64,000 nucleotides of DNA from Sulfolobales archaeon (GCA_038867615.1 JAWBYA010000001.1:577473-641472); one strand, 5' to 3'. Positions 37,785 to 57,724 are shown, numbered from the stretch's first letter. Notes: generated from the sequence alone by a model not told the origin. Numbers and translations: made by a program.

Positions 37785-38088
37785 CAATTTGTCTCAGCTC
37801 GATATAACTATGCTACGAGGGTTAAATCTGGTTTACCGTTATATTGATGTTGCATGCCAAATATACGATCTCTGTGTTTATTTAACTATATATAGATATT
37901 TCCTTGATCAAGAAACAAGCATGCTAAACAGGGCCTTAGAATCACAGCCTCGTAGATCCCCTCACGGTTTCATTTAATTTATACGGAAAAATGTTGTTTC
38001 ATATTAATTCTATAATCACATATTTCATTAACTACAAAACATTTCAGTAAATATATAAACCCCAATGCATATAATCTGCGGTGATAAA

Positions 38089-38493
38089 ATGTTGGCCGAA
38101 ACACGTGAGATAACAAGAGAATATAGATCTGTGGCATGTTTGGTAGCAACCGCATCGATCTATACAGAGTCGCTGAATTTAATAGATAGACTCGCATATG
38201 CACTAAACCCCGAATCAGCTATAAAATCCCTCAACGACTCCCTAAGGATCGTTGAGGGAGCTGTTAGGAGGGGGGAAGTGGGAGAAGCTGTTGAAAAGAG
38301 CGAGGGGGGAGGAGATCGCAGCGTCATAAAGATCCGTGTGGGGGATGGGAGAGAATATAGATTGCTATACTGCTCCTTCCCCAACGTAGAGGTTGTGAGG
38401 AGATTCCTCGAAGAGGTTAGGAGAAACATAGAGGTTGCCAGAACTATTGGAACGCTTGCTAACTCAATGGTTCTAGAAGCTAGGCTGAGGTGA
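38089..38493 (+). CDS. csa5: Type I-A small subunit Csa5 (Cas11)
   Basis: LIDRLAYALNPE..L.DSLR; position directly before cas7; GGTGA RBS before ATG 38089. Confidence 0.8.
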   Translation: MLAETREITREYRSVACLVATASIYTESLNLIDRLAYALNPESAIKSLNDSLRIVEGAVRRGEVGEAVEKSEGGGDRSVIKIRVGDGREYRLLYCSFPNVEVVRRFLEEVRRNIEVARTIGTLANSMVLEARLR

Positions 38494-39536
38494 TCGAGAT
38501 GTTCGTGAGCATGTCGTTCAGATTGGTAGTGAATGTTGAGAGCCTCAACGGTGTGGAGACTGTAGGCAATCTCTCTAGGCATAGAACAGCACCAATAGTG
38601 ATCCCTCTGTCCAAGACCTCTGGGGGCTCATACACAGTAAAATACGTCCCAGCAGTATCTGGAGAAGCCCTGGGCCATGCTTACCAAGAAGCCCTAGTAG
38701 AGGTTGCGAAGAAGATGGGGCTCCCGGTCGGTCTCTACTCATCCAGGGGAGAGTTCATAAAGTTCAGCGAGGATGAGTATTTAAAAGAAGAGGGTATATC
38801 GCCTCCAAAGGATCATAGTGATGCTAGGAGATTCGAGGTTGACGTGATACTCAAAGACGTTGTAGCGGATGTCGGCGGCTTCCTATACACGGGGAAGTAT
38901 CCTGTTAAGAGAACCTCGAGGTTCCAGGTAGGATATATGATCCCAGCGCTCGAGACAGCTGCAGAAGCCTCAGCCCTCGAGGCTCAGTTCCATGTAAGGT
39001 TCCTGGCATCCAGGCCCCAGAGGGGTGGGGAGGCTATGCTGGGCCAGATACCATATAACGTTGAGGTTGGATCGGCGCTCTATACATTCACCTTTACACT
39101 AGATCTGGGAAGTATCGCTGAGCCCTCTACAAAGTATGGAAACCCCCATCCCAGGGAGAATGATCTCAAGAACCAGGCTAAGTCTAGGAGGCAGGCTGCG
39201 ATTGGAGCCCTTACCCTCATGACAAGTTCATGGCTCTTTGGAGCAAAGAGATCCAGGTTCCTTCCCAACGCTGAGCTGAGATCTGCTGTGGCTTCTATCT
39301 CGACAGTGCCATTCGTAGTTAGTCAGGGTAACTATGGGACATATATAGCTGATACTGCTAAGAGGGCTGAGAATCTCCTCTCCGTGCTAAGATCCTTCGG
39401 AAGGTCGGAGGAGATCTCGATCCTAGCGGTGGATAGAGAGGGTCTCGAGATACCGCAGAATGTTTCGAAGGCTTCAAGTGTGGAGGAGATGATAAGAAGG
39501 ATCTCCGAGACTCTTAGGCAGAAGAACCTAGTATAA
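38490..39536 (+). CDS. cas7: Type I-A Cas7 (Csa2)
   Basis: NVESLNGVETVGNLSRHR, VPAVSGEALGHAYQ, DVGGFL, VKRTSRF, QFHVR, GAKRSRFLP. Confidence 0.95.
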   Translation: MIEMFVSMSFRLVVNVESLNGVETVGNLSRHRTAPIVIPLSKTSGGSYTVKYVPAVSGEALGHAYQEALVEVAKKMGLPVGLYSSRGEFIKFSEDEYLKEEGISPPKDHSDARRFEVDVILKDVVADVGGFLYTGKYPVKRTSRFQVGYMIPALETAAEASALEAQFHVRFLASRPQRGGEAMLGQIPYNVEVGSALYTFTFTLDLGSIAEPSTKYGNPHPRENDLKNQAKSRRQAAIGALTLMTSSWLFGAKRSRFLPNAELRSAVASISTVPFVVSQGNYGTYIADTAKRAENLLSVLRSFGRSEEISILAVDREGLEIPQNVSKASSVEEMIRRISETLRQKNLV

Positions 39537-39555: not shown

Positions 39556-40479
39556 GTGGAGATATATATGAGGTCTCCCACAGGGGCCGAGGATCTTGAG
39601 GCTCTGGTTGTTAGGGTTAGGTTTCTCTGGGGCTTTAGTATAAGGAGACCCTCGGTTTCTAAGGCTCAGCCCTCGTATAGTACGATCCCCCCGACAACAC
39701 TTATAGGGGCTCTCTCCGCACCTATAGCCGTGTCTAAGAAATACGGGGAGGTTGTTGCGAGAGGTAAGAGTATCTATAGCGCCTCTACAATAGCTATGGA
39801 TTTTGTGGCTGCTGCATCGTTGACGTTTGAGGAGAGACGTGGAAGGGCTCCTGTAGGGATATATTGGGAGGATCTCAATAGATATGCTATTCACCAGTTC
39901 CAGAGGCGTGAGAGAAGGGCTGAGAGAGAATTTATGTTTGGTGCTATAGGTGTTGGGAAGATCTATGCTCCTGACGCTATAGCAAAGATCGTGTATATAC
40001 TCGATACTGCTAAGGTTAGATCTGTGCTTGGTGATACATGGAGAAGCGATCTGATCAGATATGCTTACCAGATAACAAGGATCGGAAGCAAGGAGAGCCT
40101 AGTAGCTGTTGAGGATGCAAGGCTCGCGAGGGTAAAGCCTGTTGGTAGGGAGTTCTGCACATCTCTATACCAACCGCTAGAGTATCTGGAGAGGTTGGAG
40201 AGCCCGTATAACCCTGATATACCATACTATGCCAGATGCCCTGGTAGCGAGAAGGTTCCGGAAGCCTATATAGAGACCTTCTGGGAAGAATCCTTCGAAT
40301 TCGGCGTACAGCCTGGGGAGAAGCTATACCTTGTCCCGGGTACTAGAAGCCCGATAATGCCTGGAGAGGTTAGGATTAGGCTAAAGCAGGGCTATCAAGG
40401 TTATGAGGTTGAGGGTGAGAGGGGTCTTATTATAGCTCTTCCCGAGAGATCCTCCGCAGGGCTAAGGCGTGGGGGCTAG
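39556..40479 (+). CDS. cas5: Type I-A Cas5
   Basis: WGFSIR, PPTTLIGAL, RIGSKESLV. Confidence 0.92.
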   Translation: MEIYMRSPTGAEDLEALVVRVRFLWGFSIRRPSVSKAQPSYSTIPPTTLIGALSAPIAVSKKYGEVVARGKSIYSASTIAMDFVAAASLTFEERRGRAPVGIYWEDLNRYAIHQFQRRERRAEREFMFGAIGVGKIYAPDAIAKIVYILDTAKVRSVLGDTWRSDLIRYAYQITRIGSKESLVAVEDARLARVKPVGREFCTSLYQPLEYLERLESPYNPDIPYYARCPGSEKVPEAYIETFWEESFEFGVQPGEKLYLVPGTRSPIMPGEVRIRLKQGYQGYEVEGERGLIIALPERSSAGLRRGG

Positions 40480-40484
40480 GAGTA

Positions 40485-42290
40485 ATGGGTCAGAGGCTAG
40501 GGCTTGGAGAAATATATAACAGGGTTTGTAGCGCGCTTGGCTGGCAGCCTAGAAGACTTATAATGGAAACCCTAAAGAAGCTTGATAATGCTGTGCGGAG
40601 TAGCGATGGCGGGGCTGTTCTTGTTAGGGCTCCTACTGGTTATGGTAAGAGCACTATATCTCTAACGCTATATGTGGCGATAAAGCAGTTTGGGAGGACT
40701 GATCTGGGTTTCAGGGTGATCCATGTTCTCCCAATGAGATCTATTGGGGATAAGATGGAGATCGATATGAGGGGTAGGATAGAGGCTTTGATCGATAGGG
40801 GGTTTGATAAGCTCTCCCCCAATGATCTTGGGCTGCAGCATATGGGTTCTCCTGGAAGCCCTTATCTTGCTAGGAGGTTTGTGATAACGACTGGTGATAC
40901 GCTTATATCGAGTCTATATAAGGTTCCCCCGGTCGAGATCCGCAAGATCTTTTTATACAACATATCTCATTACGAGATCCCGAGGGGCTTTATATACTCC
41001 TCAGTTGTTGTTTTCGACGAGTTCCACCTATACCCGAGACCCTATCTCTGGTCAGCAAGTGATAGCGAGCAAGGGGATAAGGCGCTCACCTCTATGTTAG
41101 CTGCGGTCAAAGCTATACTTGATAGCGGATCCCCTGTTGTGATAGCAACAGCTACTCTTCCGAAACCTGTTCTCGATGCTCTTAACAGTGTTCAAGGGCT
41201 TAGAGGGAGGATCTTTGAGATCCCTGGTAGCAGTGATAACCCGGTCTCTAGGGATGTGGGGGTTTATTTGGAAAGCGTTAGGGATCGAGATACAATGATC
41301 GCTGTTATTGCTGAGAAGGCTTTAGAGCTCTCCATCAAGGGCTCTGTGCTTGTGGTTCTCAATACTGTTGAGTCGGCTGCTAGGGTGTATAGCAATATAA
41401 AGGATCTTTTGAAGGCTCAGGGATCTGTAGATAGTGTTGATTTGATGCTGATCCATGGGAGGATTGTTGAGAGGGATAGGAAGAGCATTGTTGAGAAGCT
41501 ATCACGCGTTTCTGCTAATAACCAGCCTGTTGGGAGGATATTGGTTTCTACACAGGTTCTAGAGGCTGGTGTTGATGTTAGCTTTAATTATCTCTTAACA
41601 GAAATAGCTCCTCCAGAGAGTATTATTCAGAGGCTTGGACGTGTTGCTAGATATGGTGGGTATGGTGAGGCTTATATCTATATTATAGTTGGGGCTAGTG
41701 ATCCTGTCCCTATATATCCTGCAGAGATCCTTGAGGAGGTTGTTAAAGAGCTTGGGGCGATAGCAAAGAGCTCTGGTGGTGCTTTATCCCACAGGGATGT
41801 GGAGGGTCTTCTGAGGATCTATGATAGGATTGAGAATCCTAATATTATTATGCGCGACTATGGAAGGGCTCTTGATGCGATAGATAGGAGTATGGATATA
41901 TCGTCAATAGATGTTAAGGGGGTTCTGGAGAAGATATGCTCCTTCCTAAGGGATAGCGATCTTGTAAGGCTACTGCCAGCCGAGCTCGATGAGGTTGCCT
42001 CATGCCTCGAGAGGGGTTTGAGCGATAGGAGTCTGTCTGATATCTCGATCCCCGCCGAGAGATCTATTCTAGGAAGGCTCTGCACGGGTAAGAGGATTAT
42101 TGGTATTTACACGGATAGCGGGAAGTGTATTAAGATAGATGCTGGGAAGGATCTAGAGGATATGGTGGGGAAGATCTGTAGGTCTAACTGCCCCTCGATA
42201 GAGATGATGAAGACACATAAATATGTATCAGAACCCGTATCAGGGCTGATTGTTAAGGGTTATGATAAGGAGAAGGGGTTGGTATTATGA
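40485..42290 (+). CDS. cas3: Cas3' helicase
   Basis: APTGYGKS, VLPMRS, DEFH, TAT, LNTV, IHGR, STQVLEAGVD, QRLGRVAR. Confidence 0.95.
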   Translation: MGQRLGLGEIYNRVCSALGWQPRRLIMETLKKLDNAVRSSDGGAVLVRAPTGYGKSTISLTLYVAIKQFGRTDLGFRVIHVLPMRSIGDKMEIDMRGRIEALIDRGFDKLSPNDLGLQHMGSPGSPYLARRFVITTGDTLISSLYKVPPVEIRKIFLYNISHYEIPRGFIYSSVVVFDEFHLYPRPYLWSASDSEQGDKALTSMLAAVKAILDSGSPVVIATATLPKPVLDALNSVQGLRGRIFEIPGSSDNPVSRDVGVYLESVRDRDTMIAVIAEKALELSIKGSVLVVLNTVESAARVYSNIKDLLKAQGSVDSVDLMLIHGRIVERDRKSIVEKLSRVSANNQPVGRILVSTQVLEAGVDVSFNYLLTEIAPPESIIQRLGRVARYGGYGEAYIYIIVGASDPVPIYPAEILEEVVKELGAIAKSSGGALSHRDVEGLLRIYDRIENPNIIMRDYGRALDAIDRSMDISSIDVKGVLEKICSFLRDSDLVRLLPAELDEVASCLERGLSDRSLSDISIPAERSILGRLCTGKRIIGIYTDSGKCIKIDAGKDLEDMVGKICRSNCPSIEMMKTHKYVSEPVSGLIVKGYDKEKGLVL

Positions 42291-43192
42291 ATAAGCCCTG
42301 TGCATTCTCAGGACAGTCGCTTATCTCGCATATCGAGGGCTCCCTCAGGATCGCTAGGATGCTGATCAGCGAGGGCTATGTAGATACAGTATCCCTGAGG
42401 CTGGCCAAGACCCTCAGGGGTAAAGTGGATCCCGGGGTTCTTGGGGATGTTGTTAGAGATATGATCGAGATCTCGGTGATCTTCCACGATATAGGTAAGG
42501 CTTTGAAGGTGTTTCAAGATTCATATAATGATAACTGCCTATGTATTCGTGAGGGGAGGTGTGGTTTCCCATACCATGAGATCTTTTCAGCGATCTATCT
42601 TTACATGTTCCTCGTTGGATTGTCTAAGGATTTCTCGAGGCTTTATGGGGATGCGCTTTTAGAGCCTATGCTAATGATTCCGGTAGCCTCTGTGATCAAC
42701 CATATGCATGCTTTGAGGAGCTATAGGGAGCTGAAGAGCGAGATCAATAGTATTGTTACTCGCAAGACTGGGGATATTGCCAGGTTAATAGAGAGGGGGA
42801 TATATTTTGAGGATCCTGAGGGACTGGCTAGGGAGATCCTTAGGTTCAAAGATCTATATTACGGCGTTAAGGTTAACGAGGATACGCTAGCCAGCTTGCT
42901 TGGGACAAGGCTGGATTCAACAGGCATGTTAAGTACTGCAGAGCAGATCGTTAAAGAGATGGGGAATGCAAGCACACAGCCATGGTCAAAGCTATATCTC
43001 TTGGTGCTAGTTCCCCTAAGCATTGGGGATAGCTGTGATAGTGCAGATAAAAGGGTCTCCGATCCTGGGGAGTTTGGTGGTAGGAAAGCCTATATCAGGG
43101 AGCTCTGCTGCAACTCGCTTGGATACTATTTAGGGAGTAGCGTGGGTGGTTTGGAAATGTGTAAAGACATGTCGAGGACTATGGGTGATTAG
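42287..43192 (+). CDS. cas3'': Cas3'' HD nuclease
   Basis: SLISH, FHDIGKA, YHEIFSA, NHMH, D..D..SA; ATGA overlap with cas3'. Confidence 0.92.
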   Translation: MNKPCAFSGQSLISHIEGSLRIARMLISEGYVDTVSLRLAKTLRGKVDPGVLGDVVRDMIEISVIFHDIGKALKVFQDSYNDNCLCIREGRCGFPYHEIFSAIYLYMFLVGLSKDFSRLYGDALLEPMLMIPVASVINHMHALRSYRELKSEINSIVTRKTGDIARLIERGIYFEDPEGLAREILRFKDLYYGVKVNEDTLASLLGTRLDSTGMLSTAEQIVKEMGNASTQPWSKLYLLVLVPLSIGDSCDSADKRVSDPGEFGGRKAYIRELCCNSLGYYLGSSVGGLEMCKDMSRTMGD

Positions 43193-43290: not shown

Positions 43291-44400
43291 ATGGCGGGTG
43301 TTAACCAGATCGAGATTAAACTCCCACCGACAATAGCTAGGGGATTCATACTAGCCTTGGTTAGACACATAGACGTGGGTCCCCAGAGAGGTGTTGAGGA
43401 GATAGAGCTTAGAGGCGATTCGGTTATCCTTAAGGGCCGCGATCCTGTTGGGGGGCTTGCAGATGCTATTAACCTTATCGCTGACTACATAGCTGACCAG
43501 GCGGGGCAGGATATTGGGGTTAGGCTGCCTATGAGTGGTAATGATAAGGGGATCGTTTCGAGGATCTTTCAATGCTACCAGGCGTCTTTAAAAGACGATC
43601 AGGAGAACCTTGCCCAGGTTGTTAGACAGATAGGCTCTACAATCTATAAGGTTAAATGCGGTGAGTCCAAGCTCCCCTCTATCCTTAAGCCTGAGATGTA
43701 TGAGTATACAAGGATTCCTGGATACCTGGGCGGGGATAGTAAGAGAAAGTTTGATGAGGAATACCCAGCCGAATCCGTTGTCCTAGCACTCATCGGGTAT
43801 CTCGGTGCAAGGGTTGGGGGTTATGGTGAGAGGAGAGCTGTGGCTCTTCTACCTCCTGATGAGGGTGGCTATAGTGCTAGGTATTTCTTTGAGAGGTACT
43901 CGAGATCTCTTAGGAATATGTGGGGTAGACAGATTAAGAGGAGGATGAGGTTTCCGGGTATAAATCCCGAGCCAGCTCTCACTATATGGCTTGCCCTCCA
44001 GCTCCCCGAGGTCGATAAGATCAACCTGGTATCGATTAGGGAACCTGCTGGGCAGGAGTCTGCAGTGCTTATCTCCTCCCTCTCCTTAACCCTTGATAGT
44101 GTCAAAAGATACGCGGATCTATGGGAATGTGTTGTTAGGGCTAATGAGAAGGGGCTCGTTGAGATGATCCTTGAGAGGGCTCTTAACCCGGATCCGAGGC
44201 GGAGGTCCGATCTTGCTGTTAAGGCCTCTGTATGGTTGTACGAGACGCTGGTGGGAGTTAGGAGGTTTGAGGAGACTGTATATATGATGTCTAGGGACTA
44301 TGTTTCAGCCTTGCTGACGAACACCGAGGCTGGGGAGGATGCTAGGATTCTGGCTATGCTTGCTAGGAGTCTCTATAGATGTTATTCCGGGCGGTCTTGA
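43291..44400 (+). CDS. Type I-A large subunit Cas8a/CsaX-like
   Basis: Position after cas3''; PMSGND, PSILKPEMYEYTRIPG motifs resembling CsaX. Confidence 0.7.
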   Translation: MAGVNQIEIKLPPTIARGFILALVRHIDVGPQRGVEEIELRGDSVILKGRDPVGGLADAINLIADYIADQAGQDIGVRLPMSGNDKGIVSRIFQCYQASLKDDQENLAQVVRQIGSTIYKVKCGESKLPSILKPEMYEYTRIPGYLGGDSKRKFDEEYPAESVVLALIGYLGARVGGYGERRAVALLPPDEGGYSARYFFERYSRSLRNMWGRQIKRRMRFPGINPEPALTIWLALQLPEVDKINLVSIREPAGQESAVLISSLSLTLDSVKRYADLWECVVRANEKGLVEMILERALNPDPRRRSDLAVKASVWLYETLVGVRRFEETVYMMSRDYVSALLTNTEAGEDARILAMLARSLYRCYSGRS

Positions 44401-45527
44401 TGAGTGCTCCAGCTTCTCTGACGCCCAATGCTTTTCTTGCTATCAAGATGGTTGTCGAGGCTCTCAGCTCTGTTGAGAGGGATATTGTCTATCTAGGTCT
44501 CTCTGAGAGCGGTTTCTATGAGGAGAGGGAGTTTAACGTCTATCTCTACGACCCTCTAGGCTCTGGTCTCGGTTCTTTCGATGCTACCGACTATCTCTTG
44601 AGCTTTTCTGACGAGAGGCCCTATACTGGTTATCTCGATAGCTCCTCTAGATCTATTTCTTTCCTCGGCGCAAGGGTTTTTGTCGGTTCCGGCTATGCCT
44701 TTGATTCTGGGAGGCATCTCCTAATCCCCCAGGGTCTAGGCTTCCCATTCCTCGCTGTCAAGGCTGGTGGGAGGGCTATAGAGGCTCTTAGAAAGATCAT
44801 CGGGGGTATTGCTTTTCTTGAGAGTCCTTCTGGCGAGATCTATGGTTCTGATTATAAGGATGATAATATTCTTGACGAGCTCAGGCTGAGGATCGAGAAC
44901 CGCCTGCTAAGCCTTATGACCCGCAAGCTGATCCTTATAGATGGTCCTATCTTTCCAGTACCGCTTGCCTATATAGAGACCTTTGGTGAGAGGTACCGTG
45001 CTGCTTTTGAGAAGCTCTATGAAGAGAGATCCAGTCTGATCGGTAGGCTTGTTGGTATTGTTAAGAGGCTTGAGCAGACCTACAAGCTATACAGGGTTGA
45101 GGAGGTGAGGAGATTCTTCGAGAACACCGTTGGGGGTAAAAATATAGGCCGTATCCCCGACCCTGTTATCCTCTCAAGGCTTGCTGGGAATAAGAAGATA
45201 TACTCGATGGGTGTTTTTAAGGAGGAGTTTACTGATCTTGGTAATAGGTATATGATCTATGTTTATGTTAGGAGCCCCTCGGGTGCTAGGGTTTTTAGGG
45301 TTGAGTCTATGGATAGGGTTGCCTTGATGGAGGTTGCTGGCTATCTACTCAAAAGCCTCTCCCACACAGGGCTCCCGATCGATATAGAGGTTGCTGATAG
45401 GATCTCTAGGAGGCTCTCGGCCTCAGCCTATATGGCTCTATATGCTCTTGGCTCTAGATCCCTCGGCGTCTCTCACGATGAGAGGTCAAGGCTACCCCTG
45501 ATCCTGGGTGAGGTTAATGAGGCCTGA
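44400..45527 (+). CDS. nurA: NurA-family nuclease (CRISPR-associated)
   Basis: YLDSS, LILIDGP, VGIVKR, GLP....AD..SR motifs; TGATG coupling with the cas8a stop. Confidence 0.8.
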   Translation: MSAPASLTPNAFLAIKMVVEALSSVERDIVYLGLSESGFYEEREFNVYLYDPLGSGLGSFDATDYLLSFSDERPYTGYLDSSSRSISFLGARVFVGSGYAFDSGRHLLIPQGLGFPFLAVKAGGRAIEALRKIIGGIAFLESPSGEIYGSDYKDDNILDELRLRIENRLLSLMTRKLILIDGPIFPVPLAYIETFGERYRAAFEKLYEERSSLIGRLVGIVKRLEQTYKLYRVEEVRRFFENTVGGKNIGRIPDPVILSRLAGNKKIYSMGVFKEEFTDLGNRYMIYVYVRSPSGARVFRVESMDRVALMEVAGYLLKSLSHTGLPIDIEVADRISRRLSASAYMALYALGSRSLGVSHDERSRLPLILGEVNEA

Positions 45528-47223
45528 GGATCTTACGAAGGATCTCGGGCTAATGGTTAGGGAGGCTGAGGAGAAGGCTTCAAGGGCTGGGGAGATGGTT
45601 ATAGGGCATGTCTCTAGAGCCTCTCCAGCCCAGGTTTCCCTCGAATCCAGGGTTGTCTCTGTCTATATCTCCTTCGAGGATTACTTGAGGAGCAGGGGTA
45701 GGGTTAGGGTTGGCTCCTACCTAGGGATCTCTGTCCCTATCCAGAGGGTCTTGATCCTTGCTAGGGTTGTTGGTGTTGAGAGGCAGGATATCTTATCGAT
45801 AGCAAGGCTTCCCGACCTATCGGGGCAGAGGGATCCCGAGGGCTCTGTGACGCCTGTGCTTGTTAGTGTTGAGGCCGTCTCTGAGAGGTCTTTCGATGGT
45901 GGTGATACACTCCCAGCACTCTCACCCATAGAGCCCCAATCCCCCGTGTTTATACCGAGGGCTTCTTTCTTATCCGAGATGCTCGGGCTCCCGGGTAGTG
46001 GTGTTCTTATTGGTTCTCTGTTTGAGTCTGGTGTTGTTAGGGGGGATGTTGGTGTTAGGCTTGATGAGAAGATCCTGAGGCACCATGTGCTTGTTATAGG
46101 GACGACTGGTAGTGGTAAGACCACTCTTCTCACAAGGATCTTTCTAGACCCCTCGTACCAATCCCTCGCACTCGATATCCAGGGTGACTATGTTAGGAGG
46201 CTTGTGGGTAGGGGTGGGGGTGAGAACTATATCTTGCTCCCCCTCACGCGGGAGCTTGTTAGAAGCCTCTGTAGATCTCGGGCGTGTGATGAGAGGTTCT
46301 ACACAGAGGTTCTGCCCGAGTTCTATGCTAGGTTGAGGGGGCTTCCCAGCCCCATGGTGGTTGGTGTTGAGAGTATCGCTGACCATGGTGGTGTGAGGGT
46401 TGGTTTTGGTAAGATCGAGTCTGTATTGATCCCGTTTGCCTTCAGGTTTTCAGAGATCTATCCAGAGGCTAACAGGATCCTACCCCTCCTCTCTCAACAG
46501 GCCTCGGTGTTCTTCAGATCTCTTGCTGAGAAGTGTGTGAGGGAATATACCCAGGGTCGAGGGCTCGATGCCTTTATAAACTGTATCTCGAGGGAGGGGG
46601 AGAGGATCAAGCTCCATAAATCCACGATAGATAGTATTGCGAGATATATCATAGCCCTCGCAAACTCCGAGGTTGTTGATGTAGCCATTGGGAGGGATCT
46701 TGTGGGGGAGCCGGATTATGGGGCCCTCTTTAGAGGGGGATCCAAGGTTGTCCTCGATCTTGGTATAGCGCGTGACTATGGATCGAGGTTCGCACCCAAC
46801 ATGATCGCGTATAGAGTGCTCTCAAAGGTCTTTAGCTATAGGGATGAGCTCTACAAGAGTGGAAGGGTTAGTGATACGATACTCCTCATCATAGACGAGG
46901 CCCACGAGTTCTTCCCACAGAGCGGGAGGGATTTCGAGAAAGAACCCCTCGAGGAGATGATCAACAAGATCATGAGGCTCGGAAGACTAAGAGGACTTGG
47001 ATGCATCATGGCGACCCACAGGCCCCAGGATCTAAACAACCTCGTAATAGAGCTAGCAAACACAAAAATAGCGCTGAGAAGCGATGAGGAAACACTCAAG
47101 AGCATAGGTATGGAGAAATACACAAAAATACTCGAAACAGCCCCAGAAGGCCTGGCCGTGATAAAAACCCACGGATACAGAGTGCCAGAGCTAACAATAA
47201 GGGTTTCCCCACCAGAGCAGTAA
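45517..47223 (+). CDS. herA: HerA-family ATPase/DNA translocase
   Basis: N-terminal HAS-barrel-like region, HVLVIGTTGSGKT (Walker A), LDIQGDY, IIDEAHEF (Walker B), RLGRLRG, ATHRP. Confidence 0.9.
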   Translation: MRPEDLTKDLGLMVREAEEKASRAGEMVIGHVSRASPAQVSLESRVVSVYISFEDYLRSRGRVRVGSYLGISVPIQRVLILARVVGVERQDILSIARLPDLSGQRDPEGSVTPVLVSVEAVSERSFDGGDTLPALSPIEPQSPVFIPRASFLSEMLGLPGSGVLIGSLFESGVVRGDVGVRLDEKILRHHVLVIGTTGSGKTTLLTRIFLDPSYQSLALDIQGDYVRRLVGRGGGENYILLPLTRELVRSLCRSRACDERFYTEVLPEFYARLRGLPSPMVVGVESIADHGGVRVGFGKIESVLIPFAFRFSEIYPEANRILPLLSQQASVFFRSLAEKCVREYTQGRGLDAFINCISREGERIKLHKSTIDSIARYIIALANSEVVDVAIGRDLVGEPDYGALFRGGSKVVLDLGIARDYGSRFAPNMIAYRVLSKVFSYRDELYKSGRVSDTILLIIDEAHEFFPQSGRDFEKEPLEEMINKIMRLGRLRGLGCIMATHRPQDLNNLVIELANTKIALRSDEETLKSIGMEKYTKILETAPEGLAVIKTHGYRVPELTIRVSPPEQ

Positions 47224-47244
47224 CAGATCAACAGGGCGACGGGG

Positions 47245-47490
47245 TTGGGAGGGCTAGAGTCTGACGAATCGGCCGAGCTAGAGCAGCTGGCCGAACTAAA
47301 AGCAAGGGTTATCTGTTACCCGTTTAAGGATGAAAGCAAGAGATCCAAGTGCGTCGAGTTTTTAACAAAAATGATGACCTATGGAGAAGCCGCTAGAGAC
47401 GCCTCCGAGGAGATGAAGAAGAGCTTCAGCAATGAAGAGATAGGGTTGATTCTTAAGAGGCTTAAGTTTCACATCACAAAATTCGGCTAG
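47245..47490 (+). CDS. Small hypothetical protein at end of cas operon
   Basis: 81 aa, helical, 21 bp after the herA stop. Confidence 0.6.
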   Translation: MGGLESDESAELEQLAELKARVICYPFKDESKRSKCVEFLTKMMTYGEAARDASEEMKKSFSNEEIGLILKRLKFHITKFG

Positions 47491-47570: not shown

Positions 47571-48749
47571 CTATTTTTTCCAAACCCAGTATTCGTAGCC
47601 ATGGAGTGGTTCTTTTAGCAATTGCTCTTTGATTAGATAGTCTATCGCCTCGCTGAATACTAGGTGGTATAGCCAGCAGAAGAACTCTGGGAAGTTAGCA
47701 TATTCGCTTGCCCTCATTTTCCTAAATGTGCTCTGGATCTTGTCGAGGTTTTTGTAGATGGTTTTGAGGATATGTTTTGACATGTGGTCTATGAATTCGT
47801 CTATGATCCTCATGTCTTCTTTTGTATATATCGGGGCTTGGGGGCTTAGGTTCTCGTCTAGGTATAGCCATTCTTTTAGATATTCTGCTGCCTCTCTGTT
47901 TATCTCGTAGCTGGGGTCTTGGTATTTTCTCTCATACTCCCCCATGATCCTTGTTACCATGTCTTCTAGCCTCTTGTTTATTGTTTCTCTCTCGCGGGCT
48001 GGGAGTTTTACATATTTTTCCAAAGCCTTTGAGATGTTCTCCTCGCCCAGTATTTTTGCTAATAGCCTGAGCAGCGAGTAATCCGGTGGAGGGATCCTCC
48101 GCCTCTCCCTCTCTCCCCCGAAGGTTGCGAACCCGTATTCGCCTATCTCGGCGCTGTGCATTCCGTAGCGGCCTAGATTCTCCATCCCATCTTCAACGCC
48201 CCACATGTAGTAGCGCCCGCCCTTCCTTACAGGGGCTTCCGGCATGATCCTCCCCTCCTCAGCAAACTTTCTCAACATACCCATATCTAGGGAGTAGGCA
48301 CCAATCAAGACGAAACCGACCCTGCTGAACGGGTATCTCCGCGAGGCGGAGAGCCTATTATAGGTCTCCAGAACAGTATCCCAGTTAGCCCTGTAGAGCT
48401 CGCCAAGCTCAACGCCTAAACTCCTAGCAAGATCTTTAGCGATCACCACATCCTCCCTCAAAGCGATAAAGAAGCCGGGAACCAGGCGTTCTTCCCTCTC
48501 CACAACGAGATCTGCTTCCCTCAGATACCCCAAATGATCCTCCACATCCTGCTTCGAAACGCCGAGCAGCCTGGCTATGCTCTCCACGGAGTAGCCCAGA
48601 TGGAGCCCTACCACGATACCCCTGCGAACATGATCACGAAGGATCTCGTAGGGATCGTATTCCGTGCAGCAGCTACCAGCAATAATTATGCTAAGCCTCG
48701 CAGCCCTCTCGTTCAAATCCCTAATAAGACCCACACCTACAGCACCCAC
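47571..48749 (-). CDS. Hypothetical protein with N-terminal winged HTH
   Basis: SVESIARLLGVSKQDVEDHLGYLREADLV HTH pattern; unrecognised C-terminal ~290 aa. Confidence 0.7.
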   Translation of the reverse strand: MGAVGVGLIRDLNERAARLSIIIAGSCCTEYDPYEILRDHVRRGIVVGLHLGYSVESIARLLGVSKQDVEDHLGYLREADLVVEREERLVPGFFIALREDVVIAKDLARSLGVELGELYRANWDTVLETYNRLSASRRYPFSRVGFVLIGAYSLDMGMLRKFAEEGRIMPEAPVRKGGRYYMWGVEDGMENLGRYGMHSAEIGEYGFATFGGERERRRIPPPDYSLLRLLAKILGEENISKALEKYVKLPARERETINKRLEDMVTRIMGEYERKYQDPSYEINREAAEYLKEWLYLDENLSPQAPIYTKEDMRIIDEFIDHMSKHILKTIYKNLDKIQSTFRKMRASEYANFPEFFCWLYHLVFSEAIDYLIKEQLLKEPLHGYEYWVWKK

Positions 48750-49406: not shown

Positions 49407-52400
49407 CTTTCAATTCTATAGCAGATCTTCCTGGATAAAAATCGGGGCGAGAAAAGTAAGGCTATACTGTCTCCTTTCAATTCTATAGCAGATCTTCTTC
49501 AAGCATACACAAGAACCAAAAAAGCATTCTATGCATCTTTCAATTCTATAGCAGATCTTCTAAGACCTTGGGAAGGGAAAGATCTCTTTAGGATCGAGAT
49601 CTTTCAATTCTATAGCAGATCTTCCACGTATTGCGTGTGCACTGACTTTAACCGCGCTTACTGAGGTCTTTCAATTCTATAGCAGATCTTCACACGGTGG
49701 TTTGGTTTAGATCCGGTGATCCGGGGTTTACTTTCAATTCTATAGCAGATCTTCATATGTAGGCGGATAGCTGATAAGATTAACGATGTGTTTGCGCTTT
49801 CAATTCTATAGCAGATCTTCACTAGTCCCCCCTATGCAGATTCAAGCAGTAGTGAAAGTAAGACTTTCAATTCTATAGTAGATCTTCTAATACATTTGGT
49901 AGATTTCAAGTGCTTCTGCTAGAATGTCACCTTTCAATTCTATAGTAGATCTTCCTACGGCTACAAATGTTAGCCTTGGCTATCATATTACTTCCTTTCA
50001 ATTCTATAGTAGATCTTCAGGGCTTATAGGAAGCATAGGATCTGGGCTGGGAGGTGCGGTAGCCTTTCAATTCTATAGTAGATCTTCCCCCGGCCCCACC
50101 CCCCCACCACACCCCCAACCCCGGCCTTTCAATTCTATAGTAGATCTTCGGTATGACGATCTTGCTGAGAAGCTTTTGAAGGTTGGTGTTCTTTCAATTC
50201 TATAGTAGATCTTCTATGTTTTTTCGAAGGTTGGTGAGGCGCCGTATCTGGCTCTTTCAATTCTATAGTAGATCTTCGGATCTAGAATCTGTATAGATAT
50301 AGACGCACTCTGTATATCTTTCAATTCTATAGTAGATCTTCAGGGCTGGTGGTCCGCAGGTCCACAGGTCCGCAGTGTGGGCTTTCAATTCTATAGTAGA
50401 TCTTCGCGGGGTTTTGCTGGGGTCTCGGGTGTTACCCCCCTTTGTCTTTCAATTCTATAGTAGATCTTCCCGATGTCTGTGCCCTGATGCTTGTTACGAG
50501 GCTTGTGTTCTTTCAATTCTATAGTAGATCTTCTTAACAGTAGCAGATGTCGCTGAGGCAGAGGCCTGGGTTGCCCCTTTCAATTCTATAGTAGATCTTC
50601 AGGCTAGCTGGATTTGTGATCACAGGCGTAGCTACATATACCTCTTTCAATTCTATAGTAGATCTTCCCGCCGTGGCCCGTGAACATGTAGTGATGATCG
50701 GGCCACCCTTTCAATTCTATAGTAGATCTTCGAGCGATACTCAACCCACGGAGACCCCGAGGCCCTGTTAACTTTCAATTCTATAGTAGATCTTCTACAG
50801 GGCTGCTAGATATCTTACTAGGGCGCTCTCACGCTTTCAATTCTATAGTAGATCTTCTGGATACACTGGCTATAGGCACATCCTTCCAGTGTTTGATCTT
50901 TCAATTCTATAGTAGATCTTCGAGATAAGCTGTATGTGATCGTTATGGCGTTAGTAATAGTGCCAACTTTCAATTCTATAGTAGATCTTCCCACGCAATG
51001 AAGCTATAATCACACTGAGCGAGTTGAATGATACTTTCAATTCTATAGTAGATCTTCAGAAGAAGCAACACTATACGCTAACATAGGGGATCTCCAGCTT
51101 TCAATTCTATAGTAGATCTTCTTGATGAATGCTATTGCTACTGATATACAGAAATTGGCAGAGCTTTCAATTCTATAGTAGATCTTCGGGATTTCTCACT
51201 GGAGGTGGTGGGGGTGGCTTGAACCTGCTTTCAATTCTATAGTAGATCTTCTTAAGAAAATGGATAGGGAAACCGCACTAAAAGAGTGTCTTTCAATTCT
51301 ATAGTAGATCTTCCTCTCCCAACCACTCCCCACCAAACTCAAAGACGTGCCTTTCAATTCTATAGTAGATCTTCTCCACCTTTACAAGGCATACTCTCTA
51401 AAGTTTACGGCTTACACTTTCAATTCTATAGTAGATCTTCTATAATGCCGAGCCAGTTCCTTGATTCCTCGACACGCCATATCCTTTCAATTCTATAGTA
51501 GATCTTCCCTTAGCGTGGTGTGGAGACCCGCTCTTAGATGCTTGGTCTTTCAATTCTATAGTAGATCTTCTTGGTGCTCTAGTAGCAGCTCTAGCTAGGG
51601 TAGCTGGTAGAACTTTCAATTCTATAGTAGATCTTCCGAGGCAGACACCGATGAACCCGGCCCCTGCCCAAGATCTTTCAATTCTATAGTAGATCTTCAC
51701 GGGGCGGAAACATATATCATCACATGGGACGACTTTCAATTCTATAGTAGATCTTCGCTCCCAAAGAGATGCGACGAGGAGCCCGGCATATGTATAGACT
51801 TTCAATTCTATAGTAGATCTTCAGGTATTTCGATGCCTCGTCCTCCAATGTTGAGAGCGATATATGCTTTCAATTCTATAGTAGATCTTCTGCTGAGACA
51901 AACACCCCACCAACCATAGAATAGCAGACTTTCAATTCTATAGTAGATCTTCAATCTACCAACAACTACGGACATATACCCACCTATATCTTTCAATTCT
52001 ATAGTAGATCTTCTGGTCTCACCATTGCCGATGCGAAGGCGTATCTCTCGAGCTTTCAATTCTATAGTAGATCTTCTATATCATTGGGAGGGTTGTCATG
52101 CCGCTTAAGGAGCCTGAGCTTTCAATTCTATAGTAGATCTTCGAAGATAAAGGAGCTGCTGAGCCCAGTCCTTGTGAAGATCTGAGCTTTCAATTCTATA
52201 GTAGATCTTCTCGCGTATTACAGGGACTATGGTCTGAGGCTCGTCTGTAGGACTTTCAATTCTATAGTAGATCTTCAGATATTCTCCAGGCATGTGAGCA
52301 GGGCCTCGGCGACTCTTTCAATTCTATAGTAGATCTTCGGGGGTCGCTGAAGCTGTCGGCAGCTGGTATGGTTGCTGTCTTTCAATTCTATAGTAGATCT

Positions 52401-55400
52401 TCGCGACGATAATTGCGATTGTGGTGGTTGCAGCGATCATACTCTTTCAATTCTATAGTAGATCTTCCTTACAATCTTATGCTCTTCCTCGACGCCACCT
52501 TCTATAACTTTCAATTCTATAGTAGATCTTCAAGGCTTTGAAGCAGGTGCTTCAAACACCAAGTATAAAGCTTTCAATTCTATAGTAGATCTTCGAGATC
52601 GAGAGGATGCTTGGGAGGAGGAGGCTTGCGGCTGCTTTCAATTCTATAGTAGATCTTCGAGGTTGTTGACTATGCACCTCTCGAGTGGGCATATATATCT
52701 TTCAATTCTATAGTAGATCTTCGCTAGAAATGGTATCCTTATCAGAAATATGTAGCTTTTTCTTTCAATTCTATAGTAGATCTTCGAAATCAACTGAGAG
52801 TATATCGAGTGATGCTGATACCTCTGCTTTCAATTCTATAGTAGATCTTCTCTTCCGGGGGATCCCGCCGGGGCGGATCGTATTACGCCTTCTTTCAATT
52901 CTATAGTAGATCTTCTGGCGAGGGTGCTGGGGAGCCGCTCAGGCCAGAAGATGTTCTTTCAATTCTATAGTAGATCTTCAGTTCGTAAACATACACCGGT
53001 TTAACTTAGTGAGTGCTATCTTTCAATTCTATAGTAGATCTTCACAGACCTCTTTATAGCATCCGCAACGGCTAGGGCCTCCTCTTTCAATTCTATAGTA
53101 GATCTTCCTGGGTATGTTTGGGTTGTTGAAGAGCGTTGGATATATTGTTCTTTCAATTCTATAGTAGATCTTCATGATTAAGGATAGCAATGGTGTGAGA
53201 GTTGATAGAGTGTTGCTTTCAATTCTATAGTAGATCTTCAGACAACAATAGCTAAAAAGCTATATGAATACTGCTATGCTCTTTCAATTCTATAGTAGAT
53301 CTTCCCCTGGCGTCAGTGTCGTGTTACTCGTAGTCCTTACACTTTCAATTCTATAGTAGATCTTCAATACCGCTTGACCAATACCGAGAGAAACTAGCAC
53401 GCATGCTTTCAATTCTATAGTAGATCTTCGCTAGATAGACCATACCTAACACTAGTAGACCTTACCCCAGTAAGCTTTCAATTCTATAGTAGATCTTCCC
53501 TTATTATATAATATACGCTGGAAAACGGCATGTTTAGCGTCTCCTTTCAATTCTATAGTAGATCTTCATTGCACGGTCTATTGCCGCGTCCAAGTCCTCC
53601 GGGTCTTGCTTTCAATTCTATAGTAGATCTTCTCTCTGCACAGTGGTCTCGCCGCTGTCTTCGCCGAGAAAGCTTTCAATTCTATAGTAGATCTTCAGGG
53701 GCATTGCCCCGAGGCAGCTGAAATGCCCTAAGTGTACTTTCAATTCTATAGTAGATCTTCGAGGCAGGTAAAGAGCTACATTGACTGGGCTGTTAGGAAC
53801 ACCTCTTTCAATTCTATAGTAGATCTTCTGTGTTTGTTGGTGTGAGGATCCCTGTGAAGATCAGGTCGCTTTCAATTCTATAGTAGATCTTCGGCTCCCC
53901 CCAGCGGAGTTTGCTCCGCCGGGTAGCGGCCTTTCAATTCTATAGTAGATCTTCAAGACCCAGAGAGAACCGCTACAATTGTTGTAGGTGGTCTAGACTT
54001 TCAATTCTATAGTAGATCTTCTCAGAGTGAGCCCTGTCAGAGTGGTTTGAGAAGTTGGAGAACTTTCAATTCTATAGTAGATCTTCTATAAGCCCAGCAC
54101 TGGAGACAGAGGGGTATAGAAACAACACTTTCAATTCTATAGTAGATCTTCCCTGGGTTGTGGCTGGTGGGCAGGGTCTGCAGCTTGTTTTTCTTTCAAT
54201 TCTATAGTAGATCTTCATCGAGGATCCCATTATTGCTTTAGAGTTAGCGGATATGCTCTTTCAATTCTATAGTAGATCTTCTGATCTTCGAGAGCAAGAT
54301 AATGGATAGGATAAAGAATCTTTCAATTCTATAGTAGATCTTCATGGCGATAGGCCTCTTCATAATACTTATAAAGATATATAGCCTTTCAATTCTATAG
54401 TAGATCTTCCGAGATCGCAAGCGAGATCGACGACATCTTACAGGAGTTAACTTTCAATTCTATAGTAGATCTTCTTAATAGCCTCTCCTCCTATTATAAG
54501 CTCTCTTTGGTATTCTTTCAATTCTATAGTAGATCTTCAAGCACTAAGTATCTACGAAGACTTCTACAAGACTACACTTTCAATTCTATAGTAGATCTTC
54601 ACACGTCCCTGTTTTCATAGAACCTCTCTGGTATGAGCTCCACTTTCAATTCTATAGTAGATCTTCAATATGGTTTTGTTTTAGAACCTTATAAGCATAA
54701 CGGCCTTCTTTCAATTCTATAGTAGATCTTCATGGATCGAGATCCTAATGAACATGATAATGAACATGACCTAGACTTTCAATTCTATAGTAGATCTTCC
54801 AGGGAATAATCCTTGGCTGTGCTCGGGGTGTCGGTCTTGCACTTTCAATTCTATAGTAGATCTTCCGGGGTTTTTACTCATGCTCAACCCCAATCCTAGA
54901 GTAGATCCCTTTCAATTCTATAGTAGATCTTCAAAGCAACAGAGGTGGAGCTTGAAGCAGAACAAGAATCTGATCTTTCAATTCTATAGTAGATCTTCAT
55001 AGGGTTATTGCCGCGATTAATTATGTAATTAGAGTTGATCTTTCAATTCTATAGTAGATCTTCGGTTGTGGTGCTTGCAGTGTTACGGGTGGCGGTAGTG
55101 TCCTTTCAATTCTATAGTAGATCTTCCTAAGCTTGAGCAGATATTAATCGAGTTACGGAAACTAAATAGTCTTTCAATTCTATAGTAGATCTTCTCCACT
55201 ACTCTTACCTTGATATAGAAGGTTATCGGGGTTGCTTTCAATTCTATAGTAGATCTTCCCATCAACTCCAGATATTCCGGTAAAAAAAGAAAGGAAGCCT
55301 CTTTCAATTCTATAGTAGATCTTCAATGCATGGTTGAGGAGAAATGTTTAGAGCCTTTCTCTAAGACTTTCAATTCTATAGTAGATCTTCCAGAAGGATT

Positions 55401-57674: not shown

Positions 57675-57724
57675 TTGTTTTTATTTTTGTTTGGTATTTT
57701 TGTTTGGTGGTTTTGGTGGTTTCT

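What the first reader, a model, noticed from the sequence alone, without database searches (positions are those of the whole stretch)
43291..47490. NurA-HerA plus small ORF translationally coupled to the type I-A Cascade operon, where cas6 normally sits
Seen: cas8a stop and nurA start overlap (TGATG at 44398-44402), nurA and herA overlap by 11 nt, an 81-aa ORF follows, and no cas6, mre11 or rad50 is recognisable in the window. Known: housekeeping HerA-NurA resects double-strand breaks with Mre11-Rad50, and CRISPR-linked nurA/herA copies have been noted mainly beside type III accessory genes in Thermoprotei without an established function. Inference: a dedicated resection machine co-expressed with Cascade-Cas3 could degrade Cas3-cut DNA, supply prespacers or repair self-cuts, and the small ORF could be an adaptor.
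Basis: partly seen in the sequence, partly recalled or inferred. Interest (0 to 1): 0.8.

Follow-up and report, generated by a model that had tools for sequence, protein, structure and literature searches.

The report
CRISPR-associated NurA-HerA pair in type I-A operon
A third, divergent copy of the archaeal NurA nuclease and HerA motor sits at the end of a type I-A CRISPR interference operon; it belongs to an accessory gene family already catalogued beside CRISPR systems, whose function is still untested.

Summary
The order csa5-cas7-cas5a-cas3'-cas3''-cas8a(CsaX)-nurA-herA is real. TGATG lies at 44398-44402. nurA and herA overlap by 11 nt, with a GGTGAGG ribosome-binding motif just before the herA ATG.

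The pair is not the housekeeping one. The genome also has nurA-herA-mre11-rad50 on contig C2 and a second pair on C5. In both the HerA and the NurA tree the window pair falls in a separate clade (SH-aLRT 100).

Its best HMM matches are the PADLOC models 'NurA/HerA, Type III coevolved'. These are the CRISPR-accessory families described by Bernick 2012, Vestergaard 2014 (listed as 'Types I + III-specific') and Shah 2018. So this is a new member of a known kind.

Of 31 related loci, 20 carry cas genes or arrays within 10 kb, against 0 of 15 in the sister subclade. Four of the 31, from three lineages besides the window's, show the same fusion behind cas8a/csaX.

The catalytic residues are invariant: NurA D80, E166, D181, K222, Y287, and HerA Walker A and B.

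The 81-aa ORF has no homologue anywhere and is unsupported as a gene. No Cas10 or RAMP gene was found in this 94%-complete genome.

The function remains inferred: ATP-driven degradation of Cas3-opened DNA, possibly feeding adaptation.

The parts
37155..37787 (-). csa3 (CARF + wHTH regulator), divergent from the interference operon
   Evidence: Pfam Csa3_N 8.3e-29 plus HTH domains
38065..38493 (+). csa5 (small subunit)
   Evidence: Pfam Cas_Csa5 1.4e-19
38490..39536 (+). cas7/csa2
   Evidence: NCBIfam TIGR02583, 280.5 bits against a cut-off of 212.6
39556..40479 (+). cas5a
   Evidence: NCBIfam TIGR01874, 61.3 bits against a cut-off of 23.05
40485..42290 (+). cas3' helicase
   Evidence: NCBIfam cas3_core, 166.8 bits against a cut-off of 102.45
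42287..43192 (+). cas3'' HD nuclease
   Evidence: NCBIfam cas3_HD 3.9e-9, below its cut-off; Pfam Cas3_HD 8.9e-4; position in the operon
43291..44400 (+). cas8a / CsaX-like large subunit (ATG 43291; a GTG at 43276 is also in frame)
   Evidence: PADLOC Cas8a 3.1e-27 and CsaX 1.5e-25. A 369-aa database homologue at 99% identity fits the ATG start.
44400..45527 (+). CRISPR-associated nurA (an alternative ATG lies at 44379)
   Evidence: Pfam NurA 50.8 bits. PADLOC NurA 'Type III coevolved' 2.6e-30. AF2 model with pLDDT 83, whose 10 best PDB hits are all NurA. Invariant D80, E166, D181, K222, Y287.
45517..47223 (+). CRISPR-associated herA (an alternative GTG lies at 45508)
   Evidence: PADLOC HerA 'Type III coevolved' 5.5e-65. 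Walker A at 195-202 and Walker B D460-E461 are invariant. AF2 model with pLDDT 86 matches HerA structures at E about 1e-21.
47245..47490 (+). 81-codon ORF with a TTG start; doubtful gene, possibly 3' UTR
   Evidence: No family hit. Only itself found among 5.8 billion protein clusters. No tblastn hit in any other locus.
47571..48749 (-). 392-aa HTH protein, convergent with the operon
   Evidence: Pfam HTH_20 1.1e-4; PADLOC Csa3 wHTH part 8e-6
49407..57289 (+). CRISPR array: 122 repeats of 24 nt, spacers 34-49 nt
57629..58531 (+). csm6-like CARF protein (Cas_APE2256)
   Evidence: Pfam 4.9e-30
58492..60213 (+). csx1 (CARF-HEPN)
   Evidence: Pfam Csx1_CARF 9.3e-36 and Csx1_HEPN 1.3e-5
60230..62907 (-). 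adaptation genes: cas4 (60230-60799), cas1 (61055-62044), csa1 (62008-62907)
   Evidence: Pfam Cas_Cas4 1.2e-13, Cas_Cas1 1.1e-61, Csa1 1.8e-88

Best explanation
The pair belongs to the already catalogued CRISPR-associated ('Cas') NurA/HerA accessory family. It is a paralogue lineage distinct from the Mre11-Rad50-linked repair pair. Here it is fused to the 3' end of a type I-A interference operon, directly behind cas8a/csaX.

Most likely mechanism, which is inferred: as in the repair complex, a HerA hexamer uses ATP to thread DNA into a NurA dimer. The substrate would be the nicked or unwound target DNA left by Cascade with Cas3' and Cas3''. The complex would then destroy the invader processively, and its fragments could serve Cas4/Csa1-Cas1-Cas2 as prespacers.

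Shown here: gene identities, intact catalytic motifs, separate paralogy, purifying selection, a recurrent link to cas genes and arrays, and the same operon fusion in three further lineages.

Inferred: complex formation, the substrate, any dependence on Cascade-Cas3, and a role in adaptation.

I put identity as Cas NurA/HerA at about 0.9. The confidence given below is for the mechanism.
For: Family membership:
- The window NurA and HerA have the PADLOC models 'NurA, Type III coevolved' (2.6e-30, 104 bits) and 'HerA, Type III coevolved' (5.5e-65, 218 bits) as their best hits.
- Control: this genome's C2 and C5 NurAs hit no PADLOC model, and their HerAs score best on a different HerA model, with only 64 and 61 bits on that one.

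Paralogy:
- The genome has 3 NurA hits. The C2 pair is followed by Mre11 and Rad50.
- HerA tree of 70 rows: the window protein lies in a 44-row clade (SH-aLRT 100, stem 1.91). The 12-row clade holding C2 and C5 is apart from it.
- NurA tree of 45 rows: the same split, 36 against 9 rows, support 100.

Enzymatic competence:
- NurA D80, E160, E166, D181, K222, Y287 and D333 are invariant in 15 of 15 clade members.
- hhalign against housekeeping NurAs (probability 92.5%) aligns D80, E166, D181, K222 and Y287 with their DSS, LEV, DGS, SK and tY motifs. These correspond to Sulfolobus NurA D58, E116, D133, K202 and Y298 (PMC3326311, passages read).
- HerA Walker A (G195-T202) and Walker B (D460, E461) are invariant.
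- Folds: the 10 best PDB hits of the NurA model are all NurA. The HerA model matches HerA at E about 1e-21.
- Purifying selection against a 95%-identical relative, synonymous to nonsynonymous codon changes: nurA 60 to 20, herA 27 to 10.

Linkage:
- 17 of 25 loci of the window's subclade, plus 3 of 6 further loci, have cas genes or arrays within the fetched flanks of at most 10 kb.
- The sister subclade has 0 of 15 by the same method.
- The order csa5-cas7-cas5a-cas3'-cas3''-csaX-nurA-herA recurs in L044 and L045 (same genus), L047 (another genus, HerA 50% identical) and L053 (another family, 42% identical). In L047 and L053 the junctions range from a 4-nt overlap to a 23-nt gap.

Other points:
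- No Cas10 or RAMP gene was found in this genome, so type I-A is the only effector seen.
- Precedent for the model: Csa3a binds nurA-herA promoters in S. islandicus, and NurA-HerA is proposed there to make prespacer fragments (PMC5587795, passages read).
Against: - No experiment or prediction here ties NurA-HerA physically or functionally to Cascade or Cas3.
- 11 of 31 related loci have no cas gene or array within about 10 kb. In 8 of them a Pfam tally of 75 neighbouring ORFs showed transporters and metabolic genes and no Cas family among the 25 most frequent of 82 families. The module can therefore stand alone.
- The family is labelled 'Type III coevolved' (PMC6546367). Many loci place it beside CARF proteins (csm6-like, csx1, csa3) rather than Cascade genes, and this window also has csm6-like and csx1 genes.
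- The genome is 94.4% complete in 28 contigs, and the window ends at a contig end, so a type III module may be unassembled.
- The fused arrangement occurs in only 4 of 31 loci, and two of those are near-identical kin.
- Metatranscriptome coverage of nurA and herA was at most 0.4x and of mixed strand. Co-transcription is not shown.
Confidence: 0.5

Rival explanations
1. It is an autonomous defence or DNA-processing module, a HerA motor with a nuclease partner like bacterial HerA-based antiphage systems. It travels in defence islands and has only landed in the cas operon. It would work without Cascade or Cas3.
For: - 11 of 31 related loci lack cas genes and arrays nearby.
- Rows of family f2 nest inside family f11 in both trees, suggesting horizontal transfer.
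- The best structural and profile matches of HerA include antiphage HerAs: DUF4297-HerA, Sir2-HerA and TdpAB. The NurA model also matches TdpAB chain G at E 3.7e-3.
Against: - The link is enriched: 20 of 31 loci against 0 of 15 in the sister subclade.
- The same in-operon position behind csaX, with tight junctions, occurs in three other lineages at 42-98% HerA identity.
- Three independent surveys class the family as CRISPR-associated (PMC3396285, PMC3973734, PMC6546367; passages read).
Confidence: 0.22
2. It is a type III / cyclic-oligoadenylate-linked accessory effector. It would be regulated through neighbouring CARF proteins, as in the Pyrobaculum nurA-csm6-herA clusters, and its place behind cas8a would be incidental.
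For: - PADLOC and Shah 2018 label the families 'Type III coevolved' (PMC6546367).
- Bernick 2012 found csm6 between nurA and herA (PMC3396285).
- CARF genes (csm6-like, csx1, csa3) adjoin nurA-herA in L050, L055, L058, L063, L064 and L068 and in L128, L129 and L133.
- This window has csa3, csm6-like and csx1.
Against: - No Cmr2, no Csm1 above threshold and no RAMP family hit in this genome; it is 94.4% complete, so absence is not proven.
- Here the genes are fused to the type I-A operon, not to the CARF genes. The CARF genes lie beyond a 7.9-kb array.
Confidence: 0.18
3. It is a redundant housekeeping double-strand-break resection paralogue, repairing self-damage or array integration intermediates, with no role in interference.
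For: - Bernick 2012 proposed repair of the array incision during spacer integration (PMC3396285, passage read).
- The catalytic machinery is the same as in repair NurA-HerA.
Against: - It forms a separate deep clade.
- BLASTP identity to the housekeeping copies is only about 22-33% over partial alignments for HerA, and nothing significant for NurA.
- NCBIfam repair-HerA equivalogs score far below their cut-offs: 41 against 970 and 24 against 800.
- There is no mre11 or rad50 beside it.
- The genome already has two other pairs.
Confidence: 0.07

Closest known systems
CRISPR-associated 'Cas HerA' and 'Cas NurA' accessory families (Vestergaard 2014, PMC3973734, 14 instances, 'Types I + III-specific'; Shah 2018, PMC6546367, clusters 57/58; PADLOC PDLC01055/PDLC01056)
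   Same: They are the best HMM matches. NurA is always paired with HerA, the pair lies in or next to cas cassettes and arrays, and it occurs in crenarchaeal thermophiles.
   Different: Here the pair is translationally coupled behind cas8a/csaX inside a type I-A interference operon, in a genome where no type III gene was found. Whether this exact fusion is already listed in those papers' supplementary tables could not be checked, because supplements are closed.
Pyrobaculum/Thermoproteales nurA-csm6-herA clusters (Bernick et al. 2012, PMC3396285)
   Same: A third nurA-herA paralogue pair that lies next to CRISPR arrays, is separate from the recombination pair, and has a csm6-family gene nearby.
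   Different: No csm6 lies between nurA and herA here. The csm6-like gene is on the far side of the array, and the pair is fused to Cascade/Cas3 genes.
Housekeeping HerA-NurA end-resection complex with Mre11-Rad50 (Blackwood et al. 2012, PMC3326311; PDB 2ygk, 4d2i, 9x1m)
   Same: The folds match, as do the NurA D-E-D plus K and Y residues and the HerA Walker motifs. The genes are adjacent and overlapping.
   Different: It is a separate clade with very low sequence identity, has no mre11 or rad50 beside it, and sits in a cas context.
Csa3a-activated nurA-herA operons of Sulfolobus islandicus, and the RecBCD-like model of prespacer generation (Liu et al. 2017, PMC5587795)
   Same: NurA-HerA expression is tied to a type I-A system, and a csa3 gene heads the operon here.
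   Different: There the link is regulatory and in trans, on repair-type operons. Here the genes are in cis, inside the interference operon. Which clade the second S. islandicus pair belongs to was not tested.
Bacterial HerA-based antiphage systems (Sir2-HerA, DUF4297-HerA, TdpAB)
   Same: The HerA fold matches at E about 1e-20 to 1e-22, and the TdpAB NurA-like chain matches the NurA model.
   Different: Their partners are Sir2 or DUF4297, or the system belongs to a phosphorothioate cluster. They are bacterial and not cas-linked.

Membership tests
CRISPR-associated NurA/HerA accessory families (PADLOC PDLC01056 / PDLC01055; Shah 2018 clusters 58/57) | The family-specific HMM is the best match, and the repair paralogues do not match it in the same way | tested here: met
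   NurA 2.6e-30 and HerA 5.5e-65, both as top hits. The C2 and C5 NurAs hit no PADLOC model. Their HerAs rank this model 12th, at 64 and 61 bits.
CRISPR-associated NurA/HerA accessory families | nurA and herA are adjacent and lie within or beside cas genes or a CRISPR array | tested here: met
   They overlap by 11 nt. They lie directly after cas8a, 2.2 kb before a 122-repeat array.
CRISPR-associated NurA/HerA accessory families | Co-occurrence with a type III effector module ('Type III coevolved') | tested here: inconclusive
   No Cmr2 hit. One 22-bit Csm1 fragment hit, far below the 170-bit cut-off. No RAMP hit. The genome is 94.4% complete in 28 contigs.
NurA nuclease (Pfam PF09376) | Pfam score above the gathering threshold | tested here: met
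   50.8 bits against 21
NurA nuclease (Pfam PF09376) | RNase H-like NurA fold | tested here: met
   AF2 model with pLDDT 83.1. The Foldseek top 10 are all NurA, with 2ygk at E 8.1e-9 and TM 0.44/0.51. A sequence profile alone found no solved NurA.
NurA nuclease (Pfam PF09376) | Catalytic Asp-Glu-Asp plus the conserved Lys and Tyr (Sulfolobus D58, E116, D133, K202, Y298) | tested here: met
   D80, E166, D181, K222 and Y287 are invariant in 15 of 15 sequences and align to the housekeeping motifs. Residue numbers of the Sulfolobus enzyme come from PMC3326311.
NurA nuclease (Pfam PF09376) | Toroidal dimer that docks on the HerA hexamer | not tested
   No oligomer prediction was run.
HerA / FtsK-class hexameric DNA translocase | DUF87/HerA core above threshold, Walker A and B present, HerA fold with an N-terminal beta-barrel | tested here: met
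   DUF87 34.6 bits against 23.2. GTTGSGKT and DEAH are invariant. AF2 model with pLDDT 85.8, with beta strands over residues 25-125. Foldseek HerA hits at 2e-22 to 6e-19, including 4d2i with TM 0.55/0.67.
Housekeeping HerA-NurA-Mre11-Rad50 resection system | Linked mre11 and rad50, and membership of the repair clade or equivalog | tested here: not met
   No Mre11 or Rad50 in the window; they lie on C2 with another pair. The clades are separate. NCBIfam repair-HerA equivalogs score 41 against 970 and 24 against 800.
Type I-A CRISPR-Cas interference operon | csa5, cas7, cas5a, split cas3' and cas3'', and cas8a in one operon | tested here: met
   The gene order is as given for I-A operons in PMC4141822 (passage read).
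Sir2-HerA / DUF4297-HerA antiphage systems | HerA paired with a Sir2 or DUF4297 effector | tested here: not met
   The partner is NurA.

The most novel reading that the evidence does not exclude
In this lineage the Cas NurA-HerA module has been captured as an integral downstream subunit set of the type I-A effector, with no type III system present. It would be the processive DNA-destruction and prespacer-generating engine that I-A Cascade-Cas3 lacks, recruited through Cas8a/CsaX. That would be a RecBCD-like arm built into a CRISPR interference operon.
Probability: 0.2. Interest if true: 0.65.

Novelty: new member of a known kind. Interest (0 to 1): 0.35.

Why it matters
CRISPR-associated NurA-HerA pairs have been catalogued since 2012, but none of the papers found in my searches reports a functional test. 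A version hard-wired into a type I-A interference operon, in a genome with no visible type III system, is a clean natural configuration. It lets one ask whether this helicase-nuclease finishes off Cas3-opened targets, feeds adaptation, or does neither. The same fused operon occurs in a member of family f11 (locus L053), which may offer a more tractable host. Otherwise the locus is an ordinary instance of a known association.

Tried and rejected
- Complex prediction of Cas8a/CsaX (alignment A3, 8 rows) with NurA (A1, 15 rows) gave 'no answer', score 0.00. It is not evidence either way.

- Expression. No RNA holder was listed for the stretch. Four RNA runs were laid on 37000-49300. X4 and X5 gave 0 reads, X8 gave one 39-nt contig piece, and X6 gave 45 reads (43 at 99% or more). 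Depth reached about 2x over csa5-cas7 and 0.4-1.1x over cas3''-cas8a. It was at most 0.4x and of mixed orientation over nurA, herA and ORF81, and no junction was informative. This is too thin to show or deny co-transcription.

- ORF81 as an adaptor is rejected as unsupported.
  - It has no family hit.
  - Only itself was found among proteins of 44-142 aa (longer and shorter forms were not searched).
  - There is no tblastn hit in other loci or elsewhere in the genome.
  - Codon-pattern evidence is impossible, because the window is almost identical to the relative G030 from about 46010 to 48400 (0-4 mismatches per 200 nt, against 5-22 upstream).

- An internal promoter before cas8a. The window has an 83-98 nt AT-rich gap there, read by eye. 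The gap is 26 nt in L047, and L053 has an 11-nt overlap, so a promoter is not conserved. I did not pursue it.

- A sequence profile of the NurA clade against PDB sequences found no NurA, only two chance hits at E 0.25 and 0.32. The fold search was needed.

- A literature search for 'CsaX' alone returned synchrotron beamline papers, so I refined it.

- The Pfam family PF27795, precomputed for the Cas8a/CsaX homologues, is not in the local library, so its name remains unknown to me.

- The 144-aa ORF at 37543-37977 overlaps csa3 on the opposite strand. I take it for a shadow frame, not the first operon gene.

No earlier findings were used.

- Supplementary tables of PMC3973734 and PMC6546367, which may already list this operon type, could not be seen.

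Full report
WHAT IS THERE

The window is G000:C1:577473-641472 and ends at a contig end. On the + strand lies an operon of nine clear genes:
- csa5, 38065-38493
- cas7/csa2, 38490-39536
- cas5a, 39556-40479
- cas3', 40485-42290
- cas3'' HD, 42287-43192
- a 369/374-aa protein, 43291/43276-44400
- nurA, 44400-45527
- herA, 45517-47223
- an 81-codon TTG-initiated frame, 47245-47490

A csa3 regulator is divergent upstream. A 392-aa HTH gene is convergent downstream. A 122-repeat CRISPR array follows at 49407-57289. After it come csm6-like and csx1 CARF genes and the cas4-cas1-csa1 adaptation genes.

The protein before nurA matches PADLOC Cas8a (type I-A large subunit, 3.1e-27) and CsaX (1.5e-25). 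Daume et al. note that the cas8a of I-A operons is often annotated csaX (PMC4141822, passage read).

THE JUNCTIONS

The junctions are as described. TGATG lies at 44398-44402. nurA and herA overlap by 11 nt, and a GGTGAGG Shine-Dalgarno-like motif lies 3 nt before the herA ATG.

No ORF in the window resembles this genome's Mre11, Rad50 or Cas6. Two Cas6 homologues lie elsewhere. One sits directly after a second cas3'' on contig C11.

IS IT THE HOUSEKEEPING PAIR? NO

The genome has three NurA hits and ten DUF87/HerA-class hits. C2:181079-187306 encodes nurA-herA-mre11-rad50. C5:16341-18886 encodes a second nurA-herA pair.

The window proteins are barely alignable to either pair. HerA shows 22-33% identity over partial alignments, and NurA has no significant BLASTP hit. 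NCBIfam repair-HerA equivalogs score 41 and 24 bits, against cut-offs of 970 and 800.

The HerA tree was built with IQ-TREE in quick mode on 70 rows; 5 of 75 rows outside 440-720 aa were dropped. The window HerA lies in a 44-row clade (SH-aLRT 100, stem 1.91). The 12-row clade containing the C2 and C5 copies and their orthologues is separate.

The NurA tree (45 rows) gives the same split, 36 against 9 rows, with support 100. These are quick trees with SH-aLRT support only, and several long branches lie outside the clades of interest.

WHICH FAMILY IS IT?

The best PADLOC hits are 'NurA, Type III coevolved' (2.6e-30) and 'HerA, Type III coevolved' (5.5e-65, nearly full length). As a control, the C2 and C5 NurAs hit nothing in PADLOC, and their HerAs prefer another HerA model. 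The orthologous pair of locus L053 behaves like the window pair.

These models correspond to clusters 57 and 58 of Shah et al. 2018 (PMC6546367, passages read). The association was first reported by Bernick et al. 2012 as nurA-csm6-herA clusters next to arrays in Thermoproteales (PMC3396285, passages read). Vestergaard et al. 2014 listed it as Cas HerA / Cas NurA, 14 instances, under 'Types I + III-specific' (PMC3973734, passages read). A 2023 survey again lists NurA and HerA among putative CRISPR auxiliary genes (PMC10910872, figure legend read).

My searches found no paper reporting a functional test of the CRISPR-associated pair. That covers only the open-access library searched.

ARE THE ENZYMES INTACT?

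Across 15 clade members, NurA D80, E160, E166, D181, K222, Y287 and D333 are invariant. Profile-profile alignment to housekeeping NurAs (probability 92.5%) puts D80, E166, D181, K222 and Y287 on their conserved motifs. These correspond to the D58, E116, D133, K202 and Y298 described for the Sulfolobus enzyme (PMC3326311, passages read).

The AF2 model of NurA (pLDDT 83) has only NurA structures among its ten best PDB matches.

HerA keeps Walker A (GTTGSGKT, 195-202) and Walker B (DEAH, 460-463) in all 15 sequences. Its model (pLDDT 86) matches both repair and antiphage HerA structures at E about 1e-21.

Against a relative with 95.5% nucleotide identity, synonymous changes outnumber nonsynonymous ones: 60 to 20 in nurA, 27 to 10 in herA and 36 to 14 in cas8a.

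IS THE LINK TO CAS GENES CONSERVED?

A search of 351 genomes of the class with the window HerA found full-length orthologues (38-100% identity) in five families. I fetched up to 10 kb either side of 40 hits. I annotated them with jackhmmer profiles seeded from this genome's Cas proteins and with a k-mer array finder.

In the window's subclade, 17 of 25 loci carry cas genes or arrays: L044-L050, L053, L055-L059, L063, L064, L066 and L068. Eight do not: L051, L052, L054, L060-L062, L065 and L067. For those eight, a Pfam tally of 75 neighbouring ORFs showed transporters and metabolic enzymes and no Cas family among the 25 most frequent of 82 families.

In the sister subclade, 0 of 15 loci had any cas gene or array.

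A pattern scan of titled genomes gave 17 loci. Eleven were duplicates of loci already held. Of the 6 new ones, 3 adjoin csm6-like plus cas4, csx1, or csx1 plus an array, and 3 adjoin nothing recognisable. These six were not placed on a tree.

The total is 20 of 31. Kin are not independent, so this is a description, not a test.

The exact arrangement csa5-cas7-cas5a-cas3'-cas3''-csaX-nurA-herA occurs in four loci:
- L044 and L045: same genus, HerA 98-100% identical.
- L047: another genus of the family, 50% identical; 9-nt gap and 4-nt overlap.
- L053: another family, 42% identical; 23- and 13-nt gaps.

In L059 and L046 the pair lies divergently beside a I-A operon. Elsewhere the neighbours are CARF genes, cas6, cas1 or arrays. 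The nearest titled record is 'Desulfurococcaceae archaeon AG1', with 99% NurA identity.

THE 81-AA ORF

It has no family hit. It has no homologue but itself among 5.8 billion clusters in the length range searched. It has no tblastn hit in any other locus or elsewhere in the genome.

Its perfect conservation in one relative is uninformative, because the whole stretch from about 46010 to 48400 is nearly identical there. I treat it as unsupported.

TYPE III

No Cmr2, no significant Csm1 and no RAMP-family hit was found in the genome. The genome is 94.4% complete and fragmented, and it carries csm6-like and csx1 genes. Absence is therefore not proven.

EXPRESSION AND BINDING

Metatranscriptome reads were too few to judge. 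The Cas8a-NurA complex job gave no answer.

READING

It is an instance of a known CRISPR accessory family in a configuration that the 2014 survey already implies (type I linkage).

The most likely mechanism is inferred from the repair complex, the intact active sites and the operon position. HerA-driven feeding of Cas3-opened target DNA into NurA would speed clearance, and the fragments could reach the adaptation proteins, as proposed for Sulfolobus NurA-HerA (PMC5587795).

Two rivals remain live: an autonomous defence module, and a CARF/type III-regulated effector. Both are compatible with part of the data.

Noticed in passing
L069-L083, L106, L108, L114 (other genomes): A sister subclade of NurA-HerA pairs, with HerA of about 600-620 aa. 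Its HerA also scores best on the PADLOC 'Type III coevolved' HerA model (tested on L075 only), but its NurA misses the NurA model. It had no cas gene or array within 10 kb in 0 of 15 loci. In several family f9 loci it lies 4-7 kb from the housekeeping nurA-herA(-mre11) genes.
   Followed up: partly
HerA and NurA trees: Rows from family f2 (L052, L060, L061) nest inside family f11 rows in both trees. This suggests horizontal transfer of the module between families.
   Followed up: no
window 46010-48400 compared with L045: Divergence from a same-genus relative drops abruptly in mid-herA, from 5-22 to 0-4 mismatches per 200 nt. This looks like a recent recombination tract covering the herA 3' half, ORF81 and the HTH gene.
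   Followed up: partly
G000:C11:20021-24327: A second type I module (cas3 helicase-like ORF, Cas3 HD, then Cas6) runs off a contig end. Here cas6 sits directly after cas3'', with no cas8a, nurA or herA.
   Followed up: partly
window 57629-60213, and the whole genome: Csm6-like and Csx1 CARF effectors are present, yet no Cas10 or RAMP gene was found in the 94%-complete assembly. Either these are orphan CARF proteins or a type III locus is unassembled.
   Followed up: partly
window 37543-37977: A 144-aa ORF overlaps csa3 on the opposite strand by 245 nt, and a similar antisense frame exists in L047. It is probably a shadow ORF rather than a gene.
   Followed up: no
window 28627-28650: A solitary degenerate copy of the CRISPR repeat (4 mismatches) lies 20.8 kb upstream of the array, just before the form III-like RuBisCO large-subunit gene (28750-30093, - strand).
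   Followed up: no
window 49407-49820: The first seven repeats of the array carry a T-to-C variant (TATAGCAGATC). This suggests that this end, next to the HTH gene, is the old trailer end and that the leader lies at the csm6-like side.
   Followed up: no
L044 12835-14985: In the 98.7%-identical relative, a 716-aa Cas3-helicase-like ORF follows the HTH gene where the window has its CRISPR array. The loci therefore differ just downstream.
   Followed up: no
window 33770-36315: Two ORFs of 209 and 639 aa overlap by 4 nt and have no Pfam hit. They lie between a P-type ATPase gene and the cas locus.
   Followed up: no
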